From assembly GCA_945861645.1 (NCBI GenBank), contig CAMAVZ010000004.1:12051-76050 (forward strand): a stretch of 64,000 nt of DNA. Direction: 5' to 3'. This stretch comes from Opitutus sp. GAS368 (GTDB lineage Bacteria; Verrucomicrobiota; Verrucomicrobiia; Opitutales; Opitutaceae). Positions 42,808 to 55,038 of this stretch are shown piece by piece; the first letter of the stretch is position 1; each line of letters opens with the position of its first letter. The position numbers were made by a program, and so were the translations under genes. Below the pieces are notes generated by a model that worked only from the letters and a program-made list of their open reading frames with translations, was not told the origin of the DNA and made no database searches.

Positions 42808-44070
42808 ATGCGTGAATCAAAATCAGTAATCGTCTGCGGCGGAGGCGTCGTGGGCCTCTGCTGTGCGTATTATCTAGCCCGTGAGGGTCGCGCTGTCACC
42901 GTGCTCGAACGCAACGGGGAAGTGCGTGATCATTGTGCGCTCGGCAGTGCTGGTTATGTTTCGCCGAGTCACGTCATTCCCCTCGCGGCGCCGGGCATGG
43001 TGTGGCAGGGCCTGAAGTGGATGCTTAATCCCCGCAGTCCTTTTTATATCAAGCCGCGGCTCGATAGCGATCTGCTCCGCTGGAGTTGGCTTTTCATGCG
43101 CTCCGCCAATCGGGCACACGTGGAGCGCGCCGCGCCAATTTTGCGTGATCTTTGTGTGGCCAGTCGCGCGCTTTTCGAAGAATTGGACGATATTACCGGT
43201 CATGCTTTTGAGTTTAAAAAAGAGGGCCTGCTCAATCTTTGTAAAACAGCGGCCGGCCTAGATCACGAAGCCCACGGCCTCGCCCGCCTTGCCAATGAAC
43301 TCGGCGTTGAGGCCCAAATCTTAAATGCCGCGCAGACTGCGGCCCTGGAGCCGGGCATTAAACTGGATGTCGCGGGTTCAGTATATTTCCCGATCGATGC
43401 TCACCTGACGCCGGGGCGTTTCGCGCAAACCCTGACGGCTTTGCTCAAGGAAATGGGGGTGCGCTTCCAATGGAATACGACAGTTTTTGGTTGGCGAACT
43501 GAAGCCGGACGGATTGCCGCGGTGCAAACTACGGCGGGTGATTTACTCGCCGATGAATTTATTCTCGCGGGCGGTTCGTGGGCCCCTGCGATGCTGACGG
43601 GTTTGGGCCTGCGGTTGCCGTTGCAAGCCGGCAAAGGCTACAGTCTTACTTTGCCGCAGCCGCGCTTTAAAGTTACTAAGCCCATGATTTGTACGGAGCG
43701 CCGGATCGCGGTAACGCCCATGGGTGACACCCTGCGCTTTGGCGGCACCATGGAGTTAAGTGGGATTAACCACCACGTGCGGCTGGAGCGGGTGCAGCAG
43801 ATTATTGATTCTGTGCCGCTTTATTTTCCCGAACTTACGGCCGCAGATTTTTCCGGGATTCAGCCTTGGCAGGGTTTGCGGCCAGTGGCCCCCGACGGCA
43901 TGCCTTATCTGGGCCGCTTTAATCGTTATCGAAACCTGACGGCGGCTTGTGGCCACGCCATGTTGGGGGTTACGATGGCGCCCATCAGTGGCTTGCTCGT
44001 AGCTGAAATTCTCGCCGGTCGTAAACCCTCGGTAGCTTTGCAGCTGCTCGACCCTAATCGATACGCCTAA
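42808..44070 (+). CDS. FAD-dependent D-amino acid (D-hydroxyproline) dehydrogenase
   Basis: GGGVVG FAD motif, GKGYS, GGTMEL, GLRP..PDGMP, GHAMLG. Substrate inferred from neighbours. Confidence 0.82.
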   Translation: MRESKSVIVCGGGVVGLCCAYYLAREGRAVTVLERNGEVRDHCALGSAGYVSPSHVIPLAAPGMVWQGLKWMLNPRSPFYIKPRLDSDLLRWSWLFMRSANRAHVERAAPILRDLCVASRALFEELDDITGHAFEFKKEGLLNLCKTAAGLDHEAHGLARLANELGVEAQILNAAQTAALEPGIKLDVAGSVYFPIDAHLTPGRFAQTLTALLKEMGVRFQWNTTVFGWRTEAGRIAAVQTTAGDLLADEFILAGGSWAPAMLTGLGLRLPLQAGKGYSLTLPQPRFKVTKPMICTERRIAVTPMGDTLRFGGTMELSGINHHVRLERVQQIIDSVPLYFPELTAADFSGIQPWQGLRPVAPDGMPYLGRFNRYRNLTAACGHAMLGVTMAPISGLLVAEILAGRKPSVALQLLDPNRYA

Positions 44071-44123
44071 CTTTGCTAAATCCACCCCGAGAGAGGACCG
44101 CGGTAGCTCAAAATAAAACGCTT

Positions 44124-45017
44124 ATGAATTGGAAAGGTGTTATCCCTGCCATCACGACTAACCTCGCGGCTGACTTGACGGTCGACCATGCCGCCCTCGC
44201 AGTTCATTGCCGTTGGCTGATCGATAGTGGCTGTACCGGGCTCGTCGTTGGCGGTTCGCTCGGAGAGGCCGCGACGCTCAGTTTTGAGGAAAAAATTGCG
44301 ATTGTTCGTACGAGCGTTGCGGCCGTAGCTGGGCGTGCGCCGATCGTGCTGGGCATTGCCTCCCTAAGCACGCTGGAAGCGGTGGCGTTAGCGCAAGCGG
44401 CGGAACAGGCTGGCGCGCAGGGTCTGATGGTCTTGCCGCCTTATGTTTATTCCAGTGATTGGCGTGAAATGAAAACACACGTCAGCGCCGTCATTGCCGC
44501 GACCAAGCTTGCTTGTCTGCTGTACAATAATCCCCCCGCCTACAAAACTGATTTTCTGCCAGAGCAGATCGCCGAACTAGCGAGTCTGCATCCTAATTTG
44601 CACGCGGTGAAAGAATCCAGTGGTGACACTCGCCGGGTCACCGCAATTCAAGCGGTGGTTGGCCCCCGCTTGGCGGTCTTAGTGGGTATGGATGACGCCA
44701 TTGTTGAAGGCATCTACGCTGGGGCGGTGGGCTGGATTGCTGGGTTGGTTAATGCGTTTCCGGTTGAATCGGTGGCGCTCTTTAATTTGGCTAGTCGTGG
44801 AGAGAAGGCGCGGGCGGCGGCGCTCTACGCTTGGTTTCTCCCGCTGCTCCGCCTCGATACAGTGCCCAAATTTGTTCAGCTGATTAAATGGGTGCAGGCC
44901 GAAGTTGGCCGCGGTACGCCGTTTGTTCGCGCTCCGCGCTTGGCCTTGGCCGGGCCTGATCTGGCCGCGGCGCGGGCGGTGTTGACAGCGGCCTTGCAAC
45001 ATCCTCCGGCTTTGTGA
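44124..45017 (+). CDS. DapA-family enzyme, probable pyrroline-4-hydroxy-2-carboxylate deaminase
   Basis: GV.PAITT, GSLGE, YNNP, VKESSGD (Schiff-base Lys), GWIAGLVN. Confidence 0.82.
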   Translation: MNWKGVIPAITTNLAADLTVDHAALAVHCRWLIDSGCTGLVVGGSLGEAATLSFEEKIAIVRTSVAAVAGRAPIVLGIASLSTLEAVALAQAAEQAGAQGLMVLPPYVYSSDWREMKTHVSAVIAATKLACLLYNNPPAYKTDFLPEQIAELASLHPNLHAVKESSGDTRRVTAIQAVVGPRLAVLVGMDDAIVEGIYAGAVGWIAGLVNAFPVESVALFNLASRGEKARAAALYAWFLPLLRLDTVPKFVQLIKWVQAEVGRGTPFVRAPRLALAGPDLAAARAVLTAALQHPPAL

Positions 45018-45071
45018 AGGGGCCTTTTGACTCGCCGGGTGCCGAGTTGAGGGTCACCATTAGCGTCGTTT

Positions 45072-46667
45072 ATGAAACCTGATGGAAGTTCACTGATTGG
45101 TTTCGGTTCCAGCGCGCCTGGTGGGGCGGAATTTTTGGCGTTTGATCCCGCCCGCGGAATCTTCTTAGAGCCAACTTTCTGCTCGGCAACGGGCCGCGAT
45201 CTCGAGCGGGCCGTACAATTAGCGGCCGCCGCTGCGCCGCTTTGGGCCAAGCTTTCTGGGGCGCAGCGCAATAAATTTTTACGCACCATTGCGGATAATC
45301 TTGAGAAAAAATCGGCGGATCTCGTCGCACGGGCCCAACAAGAAACCGCCTTACCGGAAGCGCGCTTGAAAGGAGAAATTGCGCGGACGGCTGGTCAGTT
45401 GCGTCTTTATGGCGAAACCGCTGAGCGCGGCGATTGGCTCGATGCACGCATTGAGACGGCGCAGCCAGAGCGTCAACCGCTGCCCAAACCAGATCACCGC
45501 TCTTTGCTGCGACCCTTGGGCCCCGTCGTGGTATTTGGTTCTAGTAATTTTCCGTTTGCTTACTCGGTGGCCGGGGGCGACACCGCATCCGCTTTTGCCG
45601 CCGGTTGCCCAGTGATTGTGAAGGCGCATTCCGCTCATCCGGGCACCAGCGAACTCGTGGGACGCTTGATTCTCCATGCGGTCCGAGATTGCGGCCTACC
45701 GGAGGGCACATTTTCCCTGCTATTTGATGCTGGCTTGACCGTCGGGCAAGCGCTCGTTCAGCACCCTTTAGTCAAAGCGGTTGGTTTTACGGGATCCTTG
45801 CGCGGCGGTCGTGCGCTGACGGATCTGGCCGCCGCCCGCCCCGAGCCAATTCCCGTCTATGCGGAGATGGGCAGTATTAATCCTGTTTTCATTTTACCGG
45901 GCGCGTTGGCCGAAAGATCGGCTGCGCTCGTAGATGGACTGCATGCGTCCGCTACGGTAGGGGTCGGCCAGTTTTGCACTAACCCCGGTTTGATCGTGCT
46001 GGTCCGTGCGCCGGCGGCGGAAGATTTCTTAAAAAACCTAGGGGCGAAATTAGCTGCGACTCCCCCCGCCGCGATGTTGACGGCCGCAATCTGTGCTAAT
46101 TTCAGGAAAGGAGTGGCCGCCCGCGCTCGCATCACTGGGGTTCGCCCGCTGCCTGCCCCGTCGGCTGATGACGCGCGGCTGTCGACGGTCGCCGCTCCGG
46201 TTTGGTTTGAAACTTCGGCGCAGGATTATTCGAGTAATCCAAATTTGACCGAAGAGATTTTTGGCCCGAGCTCTTTAGTGGTGTGGTGTAAAAATTCTGC
46301 TGAAATGTTAGCGGTGGCGCATGACCTTTCCGGCAATCTCACGGCGACTCTGCACGCCGGCGTGGCGGAAGTCGCCGCGCAAGGGGCGCTACTTGATATT
46401 TTAGCGAACAAAGCCGGCCGGGTGATACTTAACGGATTTCCGACGGGGCTCGAAGTGAGCCCTGCTATTGTCCACAGTGGACCGTATCCTGCCACCAGTG
46501 ATGGTGGCCGCAGCACCTCAGTCGGCACACGGGCCCTCACCCGCTGGGTGCGGCTCGTCTGTTACCAGAATTTTACCGAGGAATTGCTGCCGCCAGAATT
46601 GCAAAATGCGAATCCCCAGGGCCTGCGTCGGTTGGTCAACAGCGCGTGGACGAACGGCGCAATTTGA
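45072..46667 (+). CDS. Alpha-ketoglutaric semialdehyde dehydrogenase (NADP+)
   Basis: SNFPFAYS.AGGDTASA, FTGS, EMGSINP, GQFCTNPG, EEIFGP. Confidence 0.88.
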   Translation: MKPDGSSLIGFGSSAPGGAEFLAFDPARGIFLEPTFCSATGRDLERAVQLAAAAAPLWAKLSGAQRNKFLRTIADNLEKKSADLVARAQQETALPEARLKGEIARTAGQLRLYGETAERGDWLDARIETAQPERQPLPKPDHRSLLRPLGPVVVFGSSNFPFAYSVAGGDTASAFAAGCPVIVKAHSAHPGTSELVGRLILHAVRDCGLPEGTFSLLFDAGLTVGQALVQHPLVKAVGFTGSLRGGRALTDLAAARPEPIPVYAEMGSINPVFILPGALAERSAALVDGLHASATVGVGQFCTNPGLIVLVRAPAAEDFLKNLGAKLAATPPAAMLTAAICANFRKGVAARARITGVRPLPAPSADDARLSTVAAPVWFETSAQDYSSNPNLTEEIFGPSSLVVWCKNSAEMLAVAHDLSGNLTATLHAGVAEVAAQGALLDILANKAGRVILNGFPTGLEVSPAIVHSGPYPATSDGGRSTSVGTRALTRWVRLVCYQNFTEELLPPELQNANPQGLRRLVNSAWTNGAI

Positions 46668-47281: not shown

Positions 47282-49222
47282 TTAGGCCTGGGGTGGTTGC
47301 TGGTTGGCTGGCGCCGCCACGACCTTCTTCTCGGGCAGTGCACGGGTGGCGACCTCCTGTTTGAAGCGGGCGATGACCTCTTCGACTTTTAGGATGCCTT
47401 CGTCGCCTTTGGCGCGGGAGCGGACCGATACGCTCTGGGCTTCGGCTTCCTTTTGACCGAGCACAAGCACGTAAGGAATTTTTTCAAGTTCAGCCCGGCG
47501 GATTTTTGCACCGAGCTTATCGGAGTGCGCGTCAATCGACACCCGAAGGTCGGCGGCGAGCAGTTGCGTATGCAAAGCCTGCGCGTACGCGATAACCTTA
47601 TCACTGATGGGGACGATCCGGATTTGTTCGGGCGCGAGCCAGAGCGGGAAATCTCCACCGAAATGCTCGATGAGCACGCCGCAGAAACGCTCCATCGAGC
47701 CAAAGGGCGCGCGGTGAATCATGACGGGACGGTGCGAGGCGTTGTCGGCTCCGATGTAGGTAAGGTCGAAGCGCACGGGTAAATTATAATCGACCTGCAC
47801 GGTGCCGAGCTGCCACTCGCGGCCGATGACATCTTTAATCACGAAGTCGATTTTTGGTCCGTAGAAGGCGGCTTCGCCGGGCTCTTCCGTAAAAGGCACG
47901 CCCAATGTTTGGGCGGCCTCGCGGCAGGCGTTTTCGGCTTTATCCCAGTTAGCGGAGTCCCCGGTGTATTTCTGGGAGTCAGGGTCGCGGAGGCCAACGC
48001 GGACGCGATAATCGGCCATACCTAACGTGGTGAGAACTGTTTTTACCAGAGAGAGACAGCCAATAATTTCTTTGGGCACCTGTTCTTCGGTACAGAAAAG
48101 ATGGGCATCATCTTGGGTGAATCCACGGACGCGAGTCATGCCGCTAAGTTCACCCGACTGTTCCCAGCGGTAAACGGTACCAAATTCCGCCAGTCGCACC
48201 GGTAAATCGCGGTAGGAATGTGGCTGCGAAGCAAAAATCTTAATGTGATGCGGGCAATTCATCGGCTTCAGCAAAAAGCCATCGATGAGTTGGTCGTCAG
48301 GAAGCACGCGATCCTTCGTGATCGTTTCTTGCTTGGTGAGTCGGTTAACTTTTTCCGCAAGATGGCTGGAGACCGCTTCAATGCGATTCGACATTTCCGC
48401 GCAGGAGCAACCGGCCGAGGTCAGTTGTTCGAGAAATTCTCGCTCCACGACGGGTGGGAATTGGGAGTCTTTGTAGTACGGGAAGTGCCCGGAAGTTTTA
48501 TACAGTGAGAGTCGACCAATGTGGGGCGTGAAAACTTGCGAGTAACCCTGCTTGCGCAGCTCACCCATGATAAAATCCTGCAATTGCTGCCGCAGAATAG
48601 AGCCGTTGGGTGTCCAGAGAATTAGGCCTTGGCCCACATCTTCATCGATGTGGAACAGTTTTAATTCTTTACCAAGTTTGCGGTGGTCGCGCAATTTGGC
48701 CTGTTCCATCTGGGTGAGGTAATTAGCGAGTTCCTCTTTGGTCGGGAAGGCGGTGCCGTAGATGCGCTGGAGTTGCTTGTTGGTCTCATCGCCGCGGTGG
48801 TAAGCACCCGCGATGGAAAGGAGTTTGAAAGCCTTCAGCTTCGCCGTGTAGCGGACGTGGGAACCGGCGCAGAGATCCGTGAACTCACCGTTGGTGAAGA
48901 AGGAAATTTTCCCATCCGCGGGAATATCCGCGAGGCGGCCGAGTTTATAGCGTTCTTGGCCGCGGGACTTGATGATCTCAATCGCTTCCTCGCGGGAGAC
49001 TTCTTTGCGGTCGAAGCGCTGATTCTCCTCAGCAATTTTTTTCATTTCAGCCTCGAGCTTAACCAGATCATCGGCGGTGAATTTGTGCTCCAAGTCGATG
49101 TCGTAGTAGAAACCGGCATCAGTGGGCGGCCCGATATCGAGTTTGGCCTCAGGGAAAAGGCGGAGAACGGCAGTCGCAAGGACGTGCGAGGCCGAGTGGC
49201 GGAGTTCTTCGAGCGGAGACAT
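47282..49222 (-). CDS. thrS: Threonine-tRNA ligase (no TGS domain, internal insertion)
   Basis: LRHSASH, DLCAGSH (editing domain), RDHR, KPMNCPHH, RVRGFTQDD, AAFYGPK, IHRA..GS.ERF. ATG at 49222. Confidence 0.97.
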   Translation of the reverse strand: MSPLEELRHSASHVLATAVLRLFPEAKLDIGPPTDAGFYYDIDLEHKFTADDLVKLEAEMKKIAEENQRFDRKEVSREEAIEIIKSRGQERYKLGRLADIPADGKISFFTNGEFTDLCAGSHVRYTAKLKAFKLLSIAGAYHRGDETNKQLQRIYGTAFPTKEELANYLTQMEQAKLRDHRKLGKELKLFHIDEDVGQGLILWTPNGSILRQQLQDFIMGELRKQGYSQVFTPHIGRLSLYKTSGHFPYYKDSQFPPVVEREFLEQLTSAGCSCAEMSNRIEAVSSHLAEKVNRLTKQETITKDRVLPDDQLIDGFLLKPMNCPHHIKIFASQPHSYRDLPVRLAEFGTVYRWEQSGELSGMTRVRGFTQDDAHLFCTEEQVPKEIIGCLSLVKTVLTTLGMADYRVRVGLRDPDSQKYTGDSANWDKAENACREAAQTLGVPFTEEPGEAAFYGPKIDFVIKDVIGREWQLGTVQVDYNLPVRFDLTYIGADNASHRPVMIHRAPFGSMERFCGVLIEHFGGDFPLWLAPEQIRIVPISDKVIAYAQALHTQLLAADLRVSIDAHSDKLGAKIRRAELEKIPYVLVLGQKEAEAQSVSVRSRAKGDEGILKVEEVIARFKQEVATRALPEKKVVAAPANQQPPQA

Positions 49223-49243
49223 CGAGATAGTGTAGTTGGGTTT

Positions 49244-49267
49244 AGTCCTCCTTACGAATGGAGGGCC
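49244..49267 (-). promoter_or_regulatory. Candidate thrS translational operator (Thr anticodon stem-loop mimic)
   Basis: The mRNA strand reads GGCCCUCC-AUUCGUAA-GGAGGACU, with CGU at -34..-32 from the AUG. TTGACA at 49305-49300. Confidence 0.6.
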
Positions 49268-49354
49268 GAAAAGCGATTTGGCCACAGGGCGTGGTCGGGT
49301 GTCAATGCCGGGCTCAGACCTAGGTGATTGGCCACAAAAAGCGCCGAACGCGCG

Positions 49355-49385
49355 AAAATTAAGGGCCGGTAGAGAGACGGGCCCT
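49355..49385 (-). terminator. Possible cysS terminator
   Basis: Minus strand AGGGCC...GGCCCT followed by TAATTTT, just after the cysS stop. Confidence 0.45.
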
Positions 49386-49391
49386 CCCGAT

Positions 49392-50765
49392 CTACAGCTT
49401 CAGCGGTTCGAGGCGGTAGCTGTCTTTGGCATCTTTCATATTCCAACCAGCAGCCGTCAGTTCCTGGCGAAAGGCATCAGCCCCCGCGAAGTCCTTGCTT
49501 TGCTTCGCGGCCCAGCGTTTCGCGGCAAGCGTCACGATAGCGGCCGGTACATCCACTGGCGGTAAATCGAGGGCATCTAACTGGAAGCCGAGCGCAAAAA
49601 GCACGCGATCAAAGGCGGCTAGATTAACGCCGGCCGGACCACGATTCACAATCGTGAAGAGGGCGCCGAAGGCTCCGGGTATATTCAGATCATCAGCGAG
49701 CGCGGCAAAAATGGGGACGAAGATCGTCGTGGCCTCAGCCCTGCTGCGCCCGTCCAAGGCTGCGCGATAAGTGCGCAGGGTTTTGAGGGCGCTTTCGGCG
49801 GCGTGCAGCGAGTCGAGGGAAAAGCTTAATTGTTTACGGGGGTGCCCCATGAGCAAGGCGTAGCGGAGCGCCATCGGGGAAAATCCTTTGGCGACCAATT
49901 CATCGAGCGTGTAAAGGTTGCCGAGGCTCTTGCTCATTTTCTTGCCGTCGACTAAGAGGTGCTCGCTGTGATACCAATGATGCGAAAAGGGCGTGGCGTT
50001 GCAGCATTGGCTCTGGGCAATTTCATTTTCGTGGTGAGGAAAGAGTAGATCCACTCCGCCGCTGTGCAGGTCGATCGTCTCGCCGAGATGTTTTTTACTC
50101 ATCGCACTGCATTCGATGTGCCAGCCGGGGCGACCGCGCCCCCAGGGACTATCCCACGCATTGGTGCCATCCTCGAGTTTGTGCGCTTTCCATAACGCAA
50201 AATCACTGACGTCTTCTTTTTCATCGGCATCCGCCGCCATGGCCTTGAGCGCGCTCCCTGTTTGGAGCTCGCGTTCTTTGACGCGCGAAAGCGCGCCGTA
50301 AGCCTCGAAGGAGTTTACTTTAAAATAAACCGACCCATCCGCCGCGCGATAAGCGTTACCTTTTTTCATGAGCACCGCGATCATATCCACTTGCTCGGGG
50401 ATGTGCCCCGTGGCGGTCGGTTCCACGTGGGGTGGTAAGCAATTCAAGCTCGCACAGTCGGCGTGAAATTTAGCGGTCCATTGTTGCGTAACGTCGGCGA
50501 GGGGGCGCTGTTCATCCCGGGCGCGCTTGATGGTTTTGTCATCAACGTCGGTTAAGTTCCGCACATGTTTTACTTTATTTGCCCCAAACTCCAACTCCAG
50601 CAGTCGGCGAATAATATCATTCACAACAAAGGTGCGAAAATTTCCGATATGGGCCGGGGCATACACCGTTGGCCCGCAGTTATAGAAGCGAAAAATACCA
50701 TCCGGTTGCGCGGGCCGGAGCTCGCGCAGGCTGCGGGTGAGGGAATCGTAAAGGCGGATCGGCAT
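49392..50765 (-). CDS. cysS: Cysteine-tRNA ligase
   Basis: CGPTVY, HIGN, DFALWK, GRPGWHIECS, FPHHENE, KMSKS. Confidence 0.97.
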   Translation of the reverse strand: MPIRLYDSLTRSLRELRPAQPDGIFRFYNCGPTVYAPAHIGNFRTFVVNDIIRRLLELEFGANKVKHVRNLTDVDDKTIKRARDEQRPLADVTQQWTAKFHADCASLNCLPPHVEPTATGHIPEQVDMIAVLMKKGNAYRAADGSVYFKVNSFEAYGALSRVKERELQTGSALKAMAADADEKEDVSDFALWKAHKLEDGTNAWDSPWGRGRPGWHIECSAMSKKHLGETIDLHSGGVDLLFPHHENEIAQSQCCNATPFSHHWYHSEHLLVDGKKMSKSLGNLYTLDELVAKGFSPMALRYALLMGHPRKQLSFSLDSLHAAESALKTLRTYRAALDGRSRAEATTIFVPIFAALADDLNIPGAFGALFTIVNRGPAGVNLAAFDRVLFALGFQLDALDLPPVDVPAAIVTLAAKRWAAKQSKDFAGADAFRQELTAAGWNMKDAKDSYRLEPLKL

Positions 50766-52127: not shown

Positions 52128-53576
52128 TTAGCGCAGCTTGCTGTGCTGGCGACTATAGCCGAAGTACACCATGAAACCGAGGGCCAGCCAAATCGATAGA
52201 TTGAGCCAAGTGATGGTGGGTAGCGCGAACATTTGGGCGATGCAGATCACAATACCTAAGATGGGCACAAAAGGCACCCAGGGTGTCCGAAATGAGCGCG
52301 CGGCCTGGGGTTCGGTGCGGCGGAGGACCAGCACGCCGGCGCAGACGAGGGCAAAGGCCAGTAACGTCCCGATCGAGATCAGTTCGCCCAGAAGGTTCAG
52401 GGGAAATAAACCTGAAATAATCGCGCACGCGATACCGGTGATCCACGTGGTTACGTGGGGGGTGCCGTGTTTTGGATGGATCTTCGCAAAGGTCGCGGGG
52501 AGGAGTCCATCCTTGGCCATCGCAAAGAAAATGCGGGGTTGGCCGAGGAGGGAGACCAGAATGACGGACGTAAGGCCCGCGAGCGTGGCTGCTTCGATTA
52601 AGTAGCGAAAGAAAGCGGGCGCTTGGACCTGCTGCAGGGCGTAGATGAAGGGGGCGTCGACGTTGAGCTTGGAGTAGTGCACGAGTCCGGTGAGCACCAA
52701 CGATACCGCAATGAAGAGAAAAGAAACGATGAGCAGGGTTCCGAGTAAGCCAATTGGAAGATCACGTTGCGGATTTTTTGTCTCCTGGGCGGCGGAGGAA
52801 ACGCAGTCAAAGCCCACGTAAGCAAAAAAGATCGCCCCGGCGCCGCGGAAGATGCCACTCCAGCCATGTTCGCCGAAGACGCCGGAATTTGCGGGGATAA
52901 AAGGAGACCAGTTGGCGCGGACCAGTTCGCGGTGTCCGCTGAAATACCAAATCCCGTATCCAATTAACGCGAGCAGGACCCCGACCTTGATCAGCACCAT
53001 CAGATTATTGAAATTGGCCGATGCTTTGATCCCGATATAAAGGACGTAGGTTAGGACGAGTGAGATAAAAACGGCGGGAAAATTAATTAACGCCCCCGTG
53101 GTTACGAGCTTGCCGTTGACCACGTCAAGCGGGGCGCTGGCGATGCTCGACGGCAGCACCAGATTAAATTCTGCCAGGATGTGACGCGTCGCGCCGGACC
53201 AACTGACCGCCACCGCGGCGCCCGAAAAAAGATATTCTAAAATTAGGCACCAGCCGACGATCCAGGCAAAGATTTCACCTAAGCTGCCGTAAGCATAGGT
53301 GTACGCGCTCCCCGAGACGGGGATCATTGCGGCCAGTTCAGCGTAGCAAAGTCCGGCCAAGAGGCAGGCGAGGCCGGAGATGACGAAAGAAATGGCGATA
53401 GCCGGGCCGCCGTAGAGAGCGGCCGCCTGGCCCGTTTGCACAAAAATACCGGCGCCCACCACGGAGCCGATGCCCAAGCTAACCAGGCTGAGTGGCCCTA
53501 AGGTGCGTTTATAGCCGTGATCAGCCGCGGCTTCGGCTTGCAGGGCCGCGAGGCTTTTAGTCCGCAGCAGGCTCAC
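52128..53576 (-). CDS. APC-family amino acid permease (paralogue 2)
   Basis: GIGSVVGAGIF, CYAELA, SGSAYTY, FFAYVGFD, PRIFFAMAKDGLLP. Confidence 0.93.
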   Translation of the reverse strand: MSLLRTKSLAALQAEAAADHGYKRTLGPLSLVSLGIGSVVGAGIFVQTGQAAALYGGPAIAISFVISGLACLLAGLCYAELAAMIPVSGSAYTYAYGSLGEIFAWIVGWCLILEYLFSGAAVAVSWSGATRHILAEFNLVLPSSIASAPLDVVNGKLVTTGALINFPAVFISLVLTYVLYIGIKASANFNNLMVLIKVGVLLALIGYGIWYFSGHRELVRANWSPFIPANSGVFGEHGWSGIFRGAGAIFFAYVGFDCVSSAAQETKNPQRDLPIGLLGTLLIVSFLFIAVSLVLTGLVHYSKLNVDAPFIYALQQVQAPAFFRYLIEAATLAGLTSVILVSLLGQPRIFFAMAKDGLLPATFAKIHPKHGTPHVTTWITGIACAIISGLFPLNLLGELISIGTLLAFALVCAGVLVLRRTEPQAARSFRTPWVPFVPILGIVICIAQMFALPTITWLNLSIWLALGFMVYFGYSRQHSKLR

Positions 53577-53577
53577 G

Positions 53578-55038
53578 TTATCGGCCCGATTTGTTCAGTT
53601 TGCTGTGGTGGCGACTGTAACCGAAGTAAATCGCGATGCCGATCGCCATCCAGATGGCCAGCCGCCACCAAGTGTCAGCGGGCAGGGCATACATTTGCAG
53701 CAAGCAAATACCCGCGCCGAGGATGGGCACGAGCGGCACCCACGGGGTCCGGAACGGCCGCGGGGCATCGGGCCGAGTTTTGCGCAGCACGATGATGCTG
53801 ATGCAGACGATGACAAAAGCGAAGAGCGTTCCGATCGAGACCATTTCCCCGAGGATGGAAAGCGGCATCAGCCCACCGAGAATCGCAGAAAGTACGCCGG
53901 TTATGATCGTGGTCACATAAGGGGTCTTAAAGCGTGGGTGCACCTTGGCAAAGAACGCGGGGAGTAGGCCATCATTAGCCATCGAGAAGAAAATGCGGGG
54001 TTGGCCCATGAGCATGACCAAGATAACCGAGCTCAGGCCCGCGATGGCCGCGATTTCCACCACAAAGCGAAGGGCAAATGGGGCGCCGGCGGCTTGCAGG
54101 GCATTCACGACGGGGGCGGCGTTATTTAGCTCCGTATATTTCGACATACCCGTTAAGATGACCGAGATCGTGATGAAGAGCACGGTGCAGATGAGCAAAG
54201 AGCCGACGATGCCCATGGGCATATCTTTCTGCGGATTCTTGGCCTCCTGCGCCGCCGTCGAGACGGCATCGAAGCCGATGTAGGCGAAGAAAATAACGGC
54301 CGCGCCTTTAAAAATTCCACTCCAACCGAATTCACCGTAAGTCCCTGTGTTGGCGGGAATGAAAGGGGTCCAATTTTTTACGGCTAGGTCGTGGTGGCCG
54401 AGGAGATACCAAATACCAAAGCCGATAATGGCCAACAGTATAGACACCTTAGTGACGACCATGTAATTATTAAAGGTGGCTGATTCTTTGATGCCAATCA
54501 CCAAAAGCCAAGTCAGCACGGCAATGATCCCGACGGCGGGAAGATTGACGAGGTGGCCGGTGCTGACGAGCTGGCCGTTGACATAATCGAAAGGCGCTTG
54601 GGTCAAATGGGCTGGCAGGATGATATTAAATTCCTTTAAAAAAGCGACGAGGTGGCCGGACCAGCCGACGGCGACGGTGGGAGCCACAAAAAGATATTCC
54701 AGGATTAAATCCCAGCCAATGATCCAAGCGAAAAATTCGCCGAGGGTCGCGTAAGAATAGGTGTAGGCGCTGCCGGAGATCGGAATCATGGCGGCAAATT
54801 CTGCGTAGCAAAGTCCGGCAAACAAACAGCCGAGCCCTGAGATCACAAAAGAAATGGCGATAGCTGGACCCGCATATTGCGCGGCCGCTTGACCGGTGAG
54901 GACGAAAATTCCAGCGCCAATAATTGCGCCGATGCCAAGGCTAACGAGATTCATCCGCGAGAGGCTGCGGCGAAGGCCGACATCCGCCGCGGCTTCTTTT
55001 TGGAGGGACTCGATCGATTTAGTTTGGAACAGACTCAT
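53578..55038 (-). CDS. APC-family amino acid permease (paralogue 1)
   Basis: GIGAIIGAGIF, CYAEFA, FFAYIGFDAV, E.KNPQ, PRPFRTP. Confidence 0.93.
   Translation of the reverse strand: MSLFQTKSIESLQKEAAADVGLRRSLSRMNLVSLGIGAIIGAGIFVLTGQAAAQYAGPAIAISFVISGLGCLFAGLCYAEFAAMIPISGSAYTYSYATLGEFFAWIIGWDLILEYLFVAPTVAVGWSGHLVAFLKEFNIILPAHLTQAPFDYVNGQLVSTGHLVNLPAVGIIAVLTWLLVIGIKESATFNNYMVVTKVSILLAIIGFGIWYLLGHHDLAVKNWTPFIPANTGTYGEFGWSGIFKGAAVIFFAYIGFDAVSTAAQEAKNPQKDMPMGIVGSLLICTVLFITISVILTGMSKYTELNNAAPVVNALQAAGAPFALRFVVEIAAIAGLSSVILVMLMGQPRIFFSMANDGLLPAFFAKVHPRFKTPYVTTIITGVLSAILGGLMPLSILGEMVSIGTLFAFVIVCISIIVLRKTRPDAPRPFRTPWVPLVPILGAGICLLQMYALPADTWWRLAIWMAIGIAIYFGYSRHHSKLNKSGR

What the first reader, a model, noticed from the sequence alone, without database searches (positions are those of the whole stretch)
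49223..49305. tRNA-Thr anticodon mimic in the thrS leader: candidate autoregulatory operator
Seen: the mRNA strand reads GGCCCUCC-AUUCGUAA-GGAGGACU, a 5-bp GC-rich stem whose 8-nt loop contains UUCGUAA, a tRNA-Thr(CGU)-type anticodon loop. CGU lies at -34..-32. TTGACA at 49305 would put the transcription start near 49270, so the leader is little more than this hairpin plus an A/C-rich single strand. The GGAGG is 24 nt from the AUG, too far to be a normal Shine-Dalgarno. Established: E. coli ThrRS represses its own translation by binding an anticodon-like hairpin centred near -32. Inference: a minimal single-hairpin version of that feedback operates here. I know of no description in this lineage, and many neighbouring genes appear leaderless.
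Basis: partly seen in the sequence, partly recalled or inferred. Interest (0 to 1): 0.72.

Follow-up and report, generated by a model that had tools for sequence, protein, structure and literature searches.

The report
Threonine-anticodon hairpin before Opitutaceae thrS
A small RNA hairpin whose loop copies the anticodon loop of threonine tRNA sits just ahead of the threonyl-tRNA synthetase gene and is conserved in many related Verrucomicrobia, so the enzyme likely binds its own message and limits its own synthesis, in a simpler form than the E. coli switch.

Summary
The hairpin at 49267-49244 (minus strand) extends to 8 stem positions with one mismatch. Its loop is identical to positions 31-38 of this genome's tRNA-Thr(CGU). 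It is conserved upstream of thrS in 55 of 93 protein-anchored loci of the family (inferred Opitutaceae; 17 of 48 genera). Six of 8 pairs show two-sided changes, and G35-U36-A37 is constant in 76 of 76. Of 107 exact pattern matches across 185,579 species genomes, 104 lie directly 5' of thrS. It was not found in 142 genomes of other Verrucomicrobiota families.

One correction: 75 of 76 loci have an earlier in-frame ATG that this strain lacks. The usual position is therefore -28/-29, and the match to E. coli's -32 is incidental.

The most likely mechanism is ThrRS autorepression, which is inferred: binding, repression and the transcription start are untested. Unlike E. coli, there is one hairpin, no Shine-Dalgarno sequence, and the enzyme lacks its TGS domain. 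No homology to the E. coli operator was detected. This scan has noted similar leaders in other lineages, but not in this one.

The parts
49300..49305 (-). TTGACA, putative -35 box of the thrS promoter
   Evidence: TTGAC is present upstream in 51 of 55 hairpin-bearing and 1 of 38 hairpin-less family loci; TTGACA lies 48-51 nt before C34 in 83 of 104 pattern loci.
49267..49273 (-). Predicted transcription start, about 49270 +/-3 (inferred, not mapped)
   Evidence: Genome-wide peak of -35-like hexamers 35 nt before ATG; RNA contigs were uninformative.
49260..49267 (-). 5' arm of the stem (GG-C-CCUCC)
49252..49259 (-). 8-nt loop AUUCGUAA = tRNA-Thr(CGU) positions 31-38; anticodon mimic CGU at 49256-49254
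   Evidence: Identical to this genome's tRNA-Thr(CGU); G35, U36, A37 in 76 of 76, C34 in 75 of 76 with one U34
49244..49251 (-). 3' arm of the stem (GGAGG-A-CU); not a conserved Shine-Dalgarno sequence
   Evidence: The second base is C in 56 of 76 (GCAGG), pairing with a compensating G
49223..49243 (-). A/C-rich, G-poor single-stranded spacer (likely ribosome landing site); contains ATC at 49228-49226 where relatives have ATG
   Evidence: Spacer has 42 G in 1169 nt over 76 loci, SD-like word in 2 of 76, and is predicted unpaired; ATG in close strains
47282..49222 (-). thrS, threonyl-tRNA synthetase, 646 aa; lacks the N-terminal TGS domain, keeps the editing (SAD), catalytic and anticodon-binding domains
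   Evidence: Pfam PF07973, PF00587, PF03129, no TGS hit; aligns to E. coli ThrRS from about residue 68
49392..50765 (-). cysS (upstream neighbour, context)
   Evidence: Pfam PF01406; also upstream of thrS in many family loci

Best explanation
The thrS message carries one conserved hairpin that displays a tRNA-Thr anticodon loop about 15-21 nt before the start codon, and ThrRS likely binds it and represses its own translation. Shown: the hairpin, its covariation, the constant G35-U36-A37, its specificity for thrS and its near-fixed distance to the ATG. Inferred: when ThrRS exceeds its tRNA-Thr pool, the anticodon-binding domain of one subunit docks on the loop as on tRNA. The enzyme, probably through the editing domain it retains, would then block the 30S subunit from the adjacent A/C-rich, SD-free landing site. 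tRNA-Thr would compete the enzyme off and restore translation.
For: Loop identical to own tRNA-Thr(CGU) 31-38, which is the best match of 39 tRNAs to the window hairpin. In alignment A1 (50 distinct sequences), 6 of 8 pairs show two-sided changes, 0 of 500 shuffles reach any measure, and slid registers pair 25-53% against 86%. The second pair flips G-C/C-G at least 4 times on starred branches of a quick ThrRS tree (my count), with no C.C or G.G state in 76 loci; G.U wobbles occur. Positions 32, 33, 34 and 38 vary (one locus reads UGU, another Thr anticodon) while G35-U36-A37 does not; the E. coli operator loops likewise keep a G and a U as tRNA-Thr identity elements (PMC7373986 passage). 104 of 107 pattern matches in GTDB are directly 5' of thrS, and there is one copy per genome here. 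C34 lies 28-29 nt before the first ATG in 68 of 76. It keeps its distance to the ATG when the promoter is displaced by about 35 nt (L020, L023, L033) or when cysS ends 65-69 nt upstream with no TTGAC (L236, L237, L244). The enzyme keeps R583, E600 and R609 equivalents (their role in anticodon reading is recalled). E. coli precedent: PMC11088916, PMC9976931, PMC3858243.
Against: No binding, repression or start-site data exist here. E. coli uses two hairpins for the dimer; this has one. In E. coli, deleting the N-terminal region abolishes control (PMC7373986), and this enzyme lacks the TGS part of it. 70 of 76 loops have 8 nt, not the canonical 7, though the upstream E. coli hairpin also folds with an 8-nt loop. 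For the majority variant, stem similarity does not single out Thr: four tRNAs tie. 38 of 93 family loci and 24 of 24 other-family loci lack the element, so it is dispensable. The hairpin co-occurs with a promoter (51 of 55), which a 5'-end stabiliser would also show. The search that defined the 76 loci required GUA, so that invariance is partly built in. A loop-free stem search of the 62 remaining loci returned only 2 loose hits (L042, L103), which by eye are not homologous. Kin are not independent.
Confidence: 0.72

Rival explanations
1. ThrRS binds the loop, but the outcome is not block of initiation. It may alter mRNA stability or stimulate translation, or give only weak control with a single hairpin and a TGS-less enzyme.
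For: The hairpin is predicted at the very 5' end, where decay control acts. The second hairpin and the TGS domain are missing.
Against: The distance is fixed to the start codon rather than to the promoter. Negative feedback is the established outcome in E. coli.
Confidence: 0.12
2. A generic 5'-terminal stem-loop that stabilises the transcript or positions the ribosome on an SD-less message, with a loop conserved only by descent.
For: Strong co-occurrence with the promoter (51 of 55 against 1 of 38). SD use is scarce in this genome and in some Verrucomicrobia (PMC10783764).
Against: It does not explain why G35-U36-A37 stay fixed while stem pairs and flanking loop positions change, why the loop matches tRNA-Thr, or why the element occurs before no other gene. 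The loop is not a conserved UUCG tetraloop: position 32 is A in 55 of 76.
Confidence: 0.08
3. A DNA operator (imperfect palindrome just after the transcription start) for a transcription factor, or an RNA site for another anticodon-loop-binding protein such as a tRNA-modifying enzyme.
For: The inverted repeat lies at a near-fixed 48-51 nt from TTGACA, and two-sided changes also fit a palindrome.
Against: G.U substitutions in 8 cells of pairs 2-3 fit RNA pairing, not a DNA palindrome. The constant bases are the asymmetric loop. The element persists when the promoter moves or is missing. Position 38 is A in only 22 of 76, against a t6A-type U36-A37-A38 site (that requirement is recalled).
Confidence: 0.06
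4. Chance hairpin, a distant Shine-Dalgarno sequence, or part of an N-terminal coding extension from GTG 49285.
For: Single-sequence fold z = -0.56; the frame from GTG 49285 is open in the window.
Against: Conserved with covariation in 17 genera. GGAGG becomes GCAGG in most loci. The spacing to the aligned Met alternates between 34 and 35 nt, which breaks frame.
Confidence: 0.02

Closest known systems
Escherichia coli thrS translational operator (domains 1-4; ThrRS autorepression by anticodon-arm mimicry; PDB 1KOG among hits)
   Same: Hairpin in the thrS leader with a Thr anticodon-like loop (UUCGU in both; E. coli CGU at -33..-31), just 5' of the initiation region. The upstream E. coli hairpin folds with an 8-nt A..U-NGU..G loop closed by G-C and C-G pairs, like the majority variant here.
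   Different: One hairpin, not two. Predicted 48-nt leader with about 3 nt before the stem, so no domain 3 or 4. No SD sequence. ThrRS lacks the TGS domain and has a 52-aa insertion in the catalytic domain. C34 is usually at -28/-29. Model R1 does not match the E. coli leader, so common descent is not shown.
Yeast aaRS self-mRNA anticodon mimics (AspRS, HisRS; PMC6542539, PMC9976931)
   Same: A synthetase reads an anticodon-like loop in its own mRNA.
   Different: Eukaryotic, other enzymes; the HisRS element lies within the coding region.
T-box riboswitch (thrS control in Firmicutes; recalled)
   Same: Couples thrS expression to tRNA-Thr.
   Different: A T-box displays a codon and binds tRNA in a leader of more than 150 nt; this displays an anticodon in about 48 nt. 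No Rfam match.

Membership tests
E. coli-type thrS operator | Stem-loop in the thrS 5' leader with an NGU anticodon-like loop | tested here: met
E. coli-type thrS operator | Conserved structure with constant G35-U36 next to the initiation region | tested here: met
   6 of 8 pairs with two-sided changes; G and U in 76 of 76; C34 at -28/-29 in 68 of 76
E. coli-type thrS operator | Two anticodon-like hairpins (domains 2 and 4) for the two subunits | tested here: not met
   Scan of 150 nt upstream in loci L001-L118: only L014 has a second NGU-loop hairpin, at -141, upstream of its promoter; the extra hairpins of L020, L023 and L033 lack the loop
E. coli-type thrS operator | Bipartite ribosome-binding site: SD in domain 1 and a single-stranded domain 3 upstream of the hairpin | tested here: not met
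   SD-like word in 2 of 76 spacers; predicted start about 3 nt before the stem (inferred)
E. coli-type thrS operator | ThrRS anticodon-binding domain with the anticodon-reading residues | tested here: met
   PF03129; R583, E600, R609 kept, N575 is Ser (residue roles recalled)
E. coli-type thrS operator | N-terminal region of ThrRS that clashes with the 30S subunit | tested here: inconclusive
   Editing (SAD) domain present, TGS domain absent; the primary paper separating the two was not held
E. coli-type thrS operator | Detectable homology to the E. coli leader | tested here: not met
   Model R1, filters off: no match in L119 at E <= 5
E. coli-type thrS operator | ThrRS binds, competes with tRNA-Thr and blocks 30S binding | not testable with these tools
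   Needs gel shift, toeprint and reporter
T-box riboswitch | Rfam T-box match, specifier codon, antiterminator | tested here: not met
   No match in window 49000-49600 apart from two chance hits; none at gathering score in 5 loci

The most novel reading that the evidence does not exclude
An independently evolved minimal ThrRS operator: one anticodon hairpin at the 5' end of an SD-free leader, read by a TGS-less enzyme. It would show that neither a second hairpin, nor an SD, nor the TGS domain is needed for synthetase autorepression, and that anticodon-mimic feedback arose convergently outside the Proteobacteria as a promoter-plus-operator cassette gained or lost as a unit.
Probability: 0.5. 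Interest if true: 0.65.

Novelty: new variant of a known kind. Interest (0 to 1): 0.5.

Why it matters
In bacteria, synthetase autorepression by anticodon mimicry has been worked out for E. coli thrS. I found no description for Verrucomicrobiota in searches, and Rfam has no model that matches even the E. coli leader. A 24-nt single-hairpin version in a lineage that rarely uses SD sequences, with an enzyme lacking TGS, is a natural test of which parts of the E. coli mechanism are essential. Natural variants supply the controls: a UGU loop, 7-nt loops, an inverted stem, and close kin without the element. It also gives a compact part for feedback control of SD-less messages.

Tried and rejected
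Single-sequence folding: not significant. Sigma-70 scan: no full promoter. Rfam: no match; uninformative, since the E. coli leader is also unmatched. Stem-only pattern over 201 family genomes: swamped by chance matches, no use as a loop-independence test. Start site from RNA runs (6 RNA runs, contigs only): two RNA contigs end inside the hairpin (49255, 49261) and two of another strain run from the leader into cysS; contigs cannot show a start, so there is no conclusion. Two Chloroflexota pattern hits (L138, L143) have no thrS within 250 nt and are treated as chance. One model hit (L239, E 1e-4) is not at thrS and its loop lacks A37. Four weak model hits (E 0.01-0.03) were not fetched. Other synthetases: among hairpins with own-tRNA anticodon loops before 1529 predicted genes, none besides thrS looked like an aaRS (judged by eye from the first 20 residues, not by Pfam). 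N-terminal extension, distant SD and UUCG tetraloop were rejected. The careful tree did not finish and the quick tree was used. No 16S 3' end was found in the assembly. Primary E. coli papers were not held.

Full report
Observation. The sequence is as described. On the minus strand, TTGACA lies at 49305-49300, a CCUCC/GGAGG stem (49264-49260 with 49251-49247) closes the loop AUUCGUAA, CGU is at -34..-32 from the ATG at 49222, and 24 nt separate GGAGG from that ATG. The gene is thrS (PF07973, PF00587, PF03129) and the upstream gene is cysS. The stem extends to 49267/49244 through a C.A mismatch. Alone, the fold is no better than shuffles (z -0.56). Only 4 of 1529 crudely predicted genes of this genome have a >=5-bp hairpin with a Y-N-G-U-A loop in register in -70..-9. 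The loop equals positions 31-38 of the genome's tRNA-Thr(CGU), the best of 39 tRNAs for the window hairpin. For the majority variant in relatives four tRNAs tie.

Conservation. I anchored loci on the ThrRS protein, not on the motif. I fetched upstream DNA for 93 loci of the family (38 of the genus, and 55 more chosen as about one per genus among those with listed coordinates), 24 loci of other families of the order, and one second copy. The hairpin is present in 55 of 93 (36 of 38 in the genus; 17 of 48 genera) and in 0 of 24. The 50 distinct 36-nt sequences give 85.8% paired cells and 6 of 8 pairs with two-sided changes. None of 500 shuffles reaches any measure, and slid registers pair 25-53%; RNAalifold returns the same helix. 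Shuffles ignore kinship, so I checked a quick ThrRS tree of 36 proteins (the careful search did not finish). By my count the second pair flips between G-C and C-G at least four times on starred branches. Recombination of leaders could mimic this. A covariance model finds one significant copy in this genome, matches in 55 of 149 family genomes (three of those genomes are known or likely non-thrS hits), and none in 142 genomes of other families of the phylum. Of 20 model hits fetched that were not in the training set, 19 are directly before thrS. An exact pattern over 185,579 species genomes gave 107 loci: 104 are directly 5' of thrS on the same strand, 1 is cut by a contig end, and 2 are Chloroflexota sites without thrS nearby. 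Record titles name Opitutaceae, Lacunisphaera, Oleiharenicola, Opitutus, Didemnitutus and Nibricoccus, so I infer that the family is Opitutaceae.

Anatomy over 76 genomes (55 protein-anchored plus 21 model-found). G35, U36 and A37 are constant. This is partly built into my search, but a loop-free stem search of 62 motif-less loci gave only 2 loose, non-homologous hits. Position 34 is C in 75 and U in one (UGU, also Thr); 33 is U in 70 and C in 6; 32 and 38 vary. Loops have 8 nt in 70 and 7 nt in 6. The five inner pairs hold in 70-76 of 76, with G.U wobbles. One genus carries a largely inverted stem (L078, L234). The spacer to the first ATG is 15-16 nt in 68 of 76, has 4% G, and holds an SD-like word in 2 of 76. 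SD words are also scarce genome-wide, in line with the SD-scarce Verrucomicrobia of PMC10783764 (passages).

75 of 76 loci have an in-frame ATG earlier than the aligned Met, usually 6 nt, which puts C34 at -28/-29. The window has ATC there. One DNA run matches the window letter for letter, while close strains in three other runs read ATG, so the loss looks real in this population. Agreement with E. coli's position (CGU at -33..-31 in the fetched leader) is therefore incidental. Which ATG relatives use is unknown.

Promoter. No consensus -10 box was found. TTGAC accompanies the hairpin in 51 of 55 loci and occurs in 1 of 38 without it (kin are not independent). -35-like hexamers peak 35 nt before ATGs in this genome, which fits many leaderless genes and predicts a start near 49270. 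RNA runs are held only as contigs and gave no start. The hairpin stays at its distance from the ATG when the promoter is displaced by about 35 nt (L020, L023, L033) or when cysS ends 65-69 nt upstream (L236, L237, L244). This points to a role in translation.

Mechanism. In E. coli, ThrRS binds two anticodon-like hairpins, blocks the 30S subunit, is competed by tRNA-Thr, and needs its N-terminal region (passages of PMC11088916, PMC9976931, PMC3858243 and PMC7373986). The primary papers were not held. The enzyme here keeps the equivalents of R583, E600 and R609 (roles recalled) and the editing domain, but lacks TGS, as do nearly all the other-family enzymes of the order that I read. I infer autorepression through one hairpin beside an unstructured landing site (0.72). 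Rivals: ThrRS binding with another outcome (0.12), a generic 5' stabiliser (0.08), a DNA operator or another ligand (0.06), and chance (0.02).

Comparison and novelty. It likely works like the E. coli operator but fails three membership features: the second hairpin, the bipartite SD-containing site, and detectable homology. I therefore do not file it as a member. Rfam has no match, even for E. coli. Searches (listings) showed no description in Verrucomicrobiota, and a 2026 preprint on intergenic features has no mention of thrS or synthetases (term search of main text). Most subscription papers and all supplements were unseen, and motif catalogues in supplements could list it. Other passages read: PMC6542539, PMC13148393, section 27 of PMC9976931. 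This scan has unchecked notes of similar thrS, glyS and ileS leaders in other genomes, and none on look-alikes of this locus. Verdict: real conserved RNA element, new variant of a known kind, interest 0.5.

Noticed in passing
window 49226-49229 (-): This strain has lost the upstream ATG (Met-Ser-Met start of relatives; ATC here). It is the only such case among 76 loci, and close strains keep the ATG.
   Followed up: yes
window about 48284-48439 (-), ThrRS residues about 262-313: 52-aa insertion in the catalytic domain relative to E. coli, with a Cys-Ser-Cys motif. Most other families of the order lack about 30 residues of it. It is present with and without the hairpin.
   Followed up: no
L020, L023, L033, about 40-85 nt before thrS: A second, upstream copy of the stem whose loop is replaced by a CCCGC-N4-GCGGG hairpin, followed by an intact anticodon hairpin. 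It looks like duplication after a repeat-like insertion.
   Followed up: partly
family loci L059-L118: Hairpin-less genomes mostly lack the TTGAC box too and often place thrS 21-100 nt after cysS, so promoter and hairpin seem to be gained or lost as a cassette.
   Followed up: partly
L057 (G001:C177): A second, divergent thrS (42-45% identity) with a longer N-terminus and no hairpin match, in a genome that also has the usual copy.
   Followed up: no
whole genome G000: SD-like words are rare before starts (GGAG 41 hits at -10..-13 among about 1530 genes), starts favour C at -1/-2, and -35 boxes peak 35 nt before ATG.
   Followed up: partly
window 42808-46667 (+) and 52128-55038 (-): A three-gene run resembling an FAD oxidoreductase, a DapA-family lyase and an aldehyde dehydrogenase, and two tandem amino-acid permease-like genes (labels recalled, not tested).
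   Followed up: no
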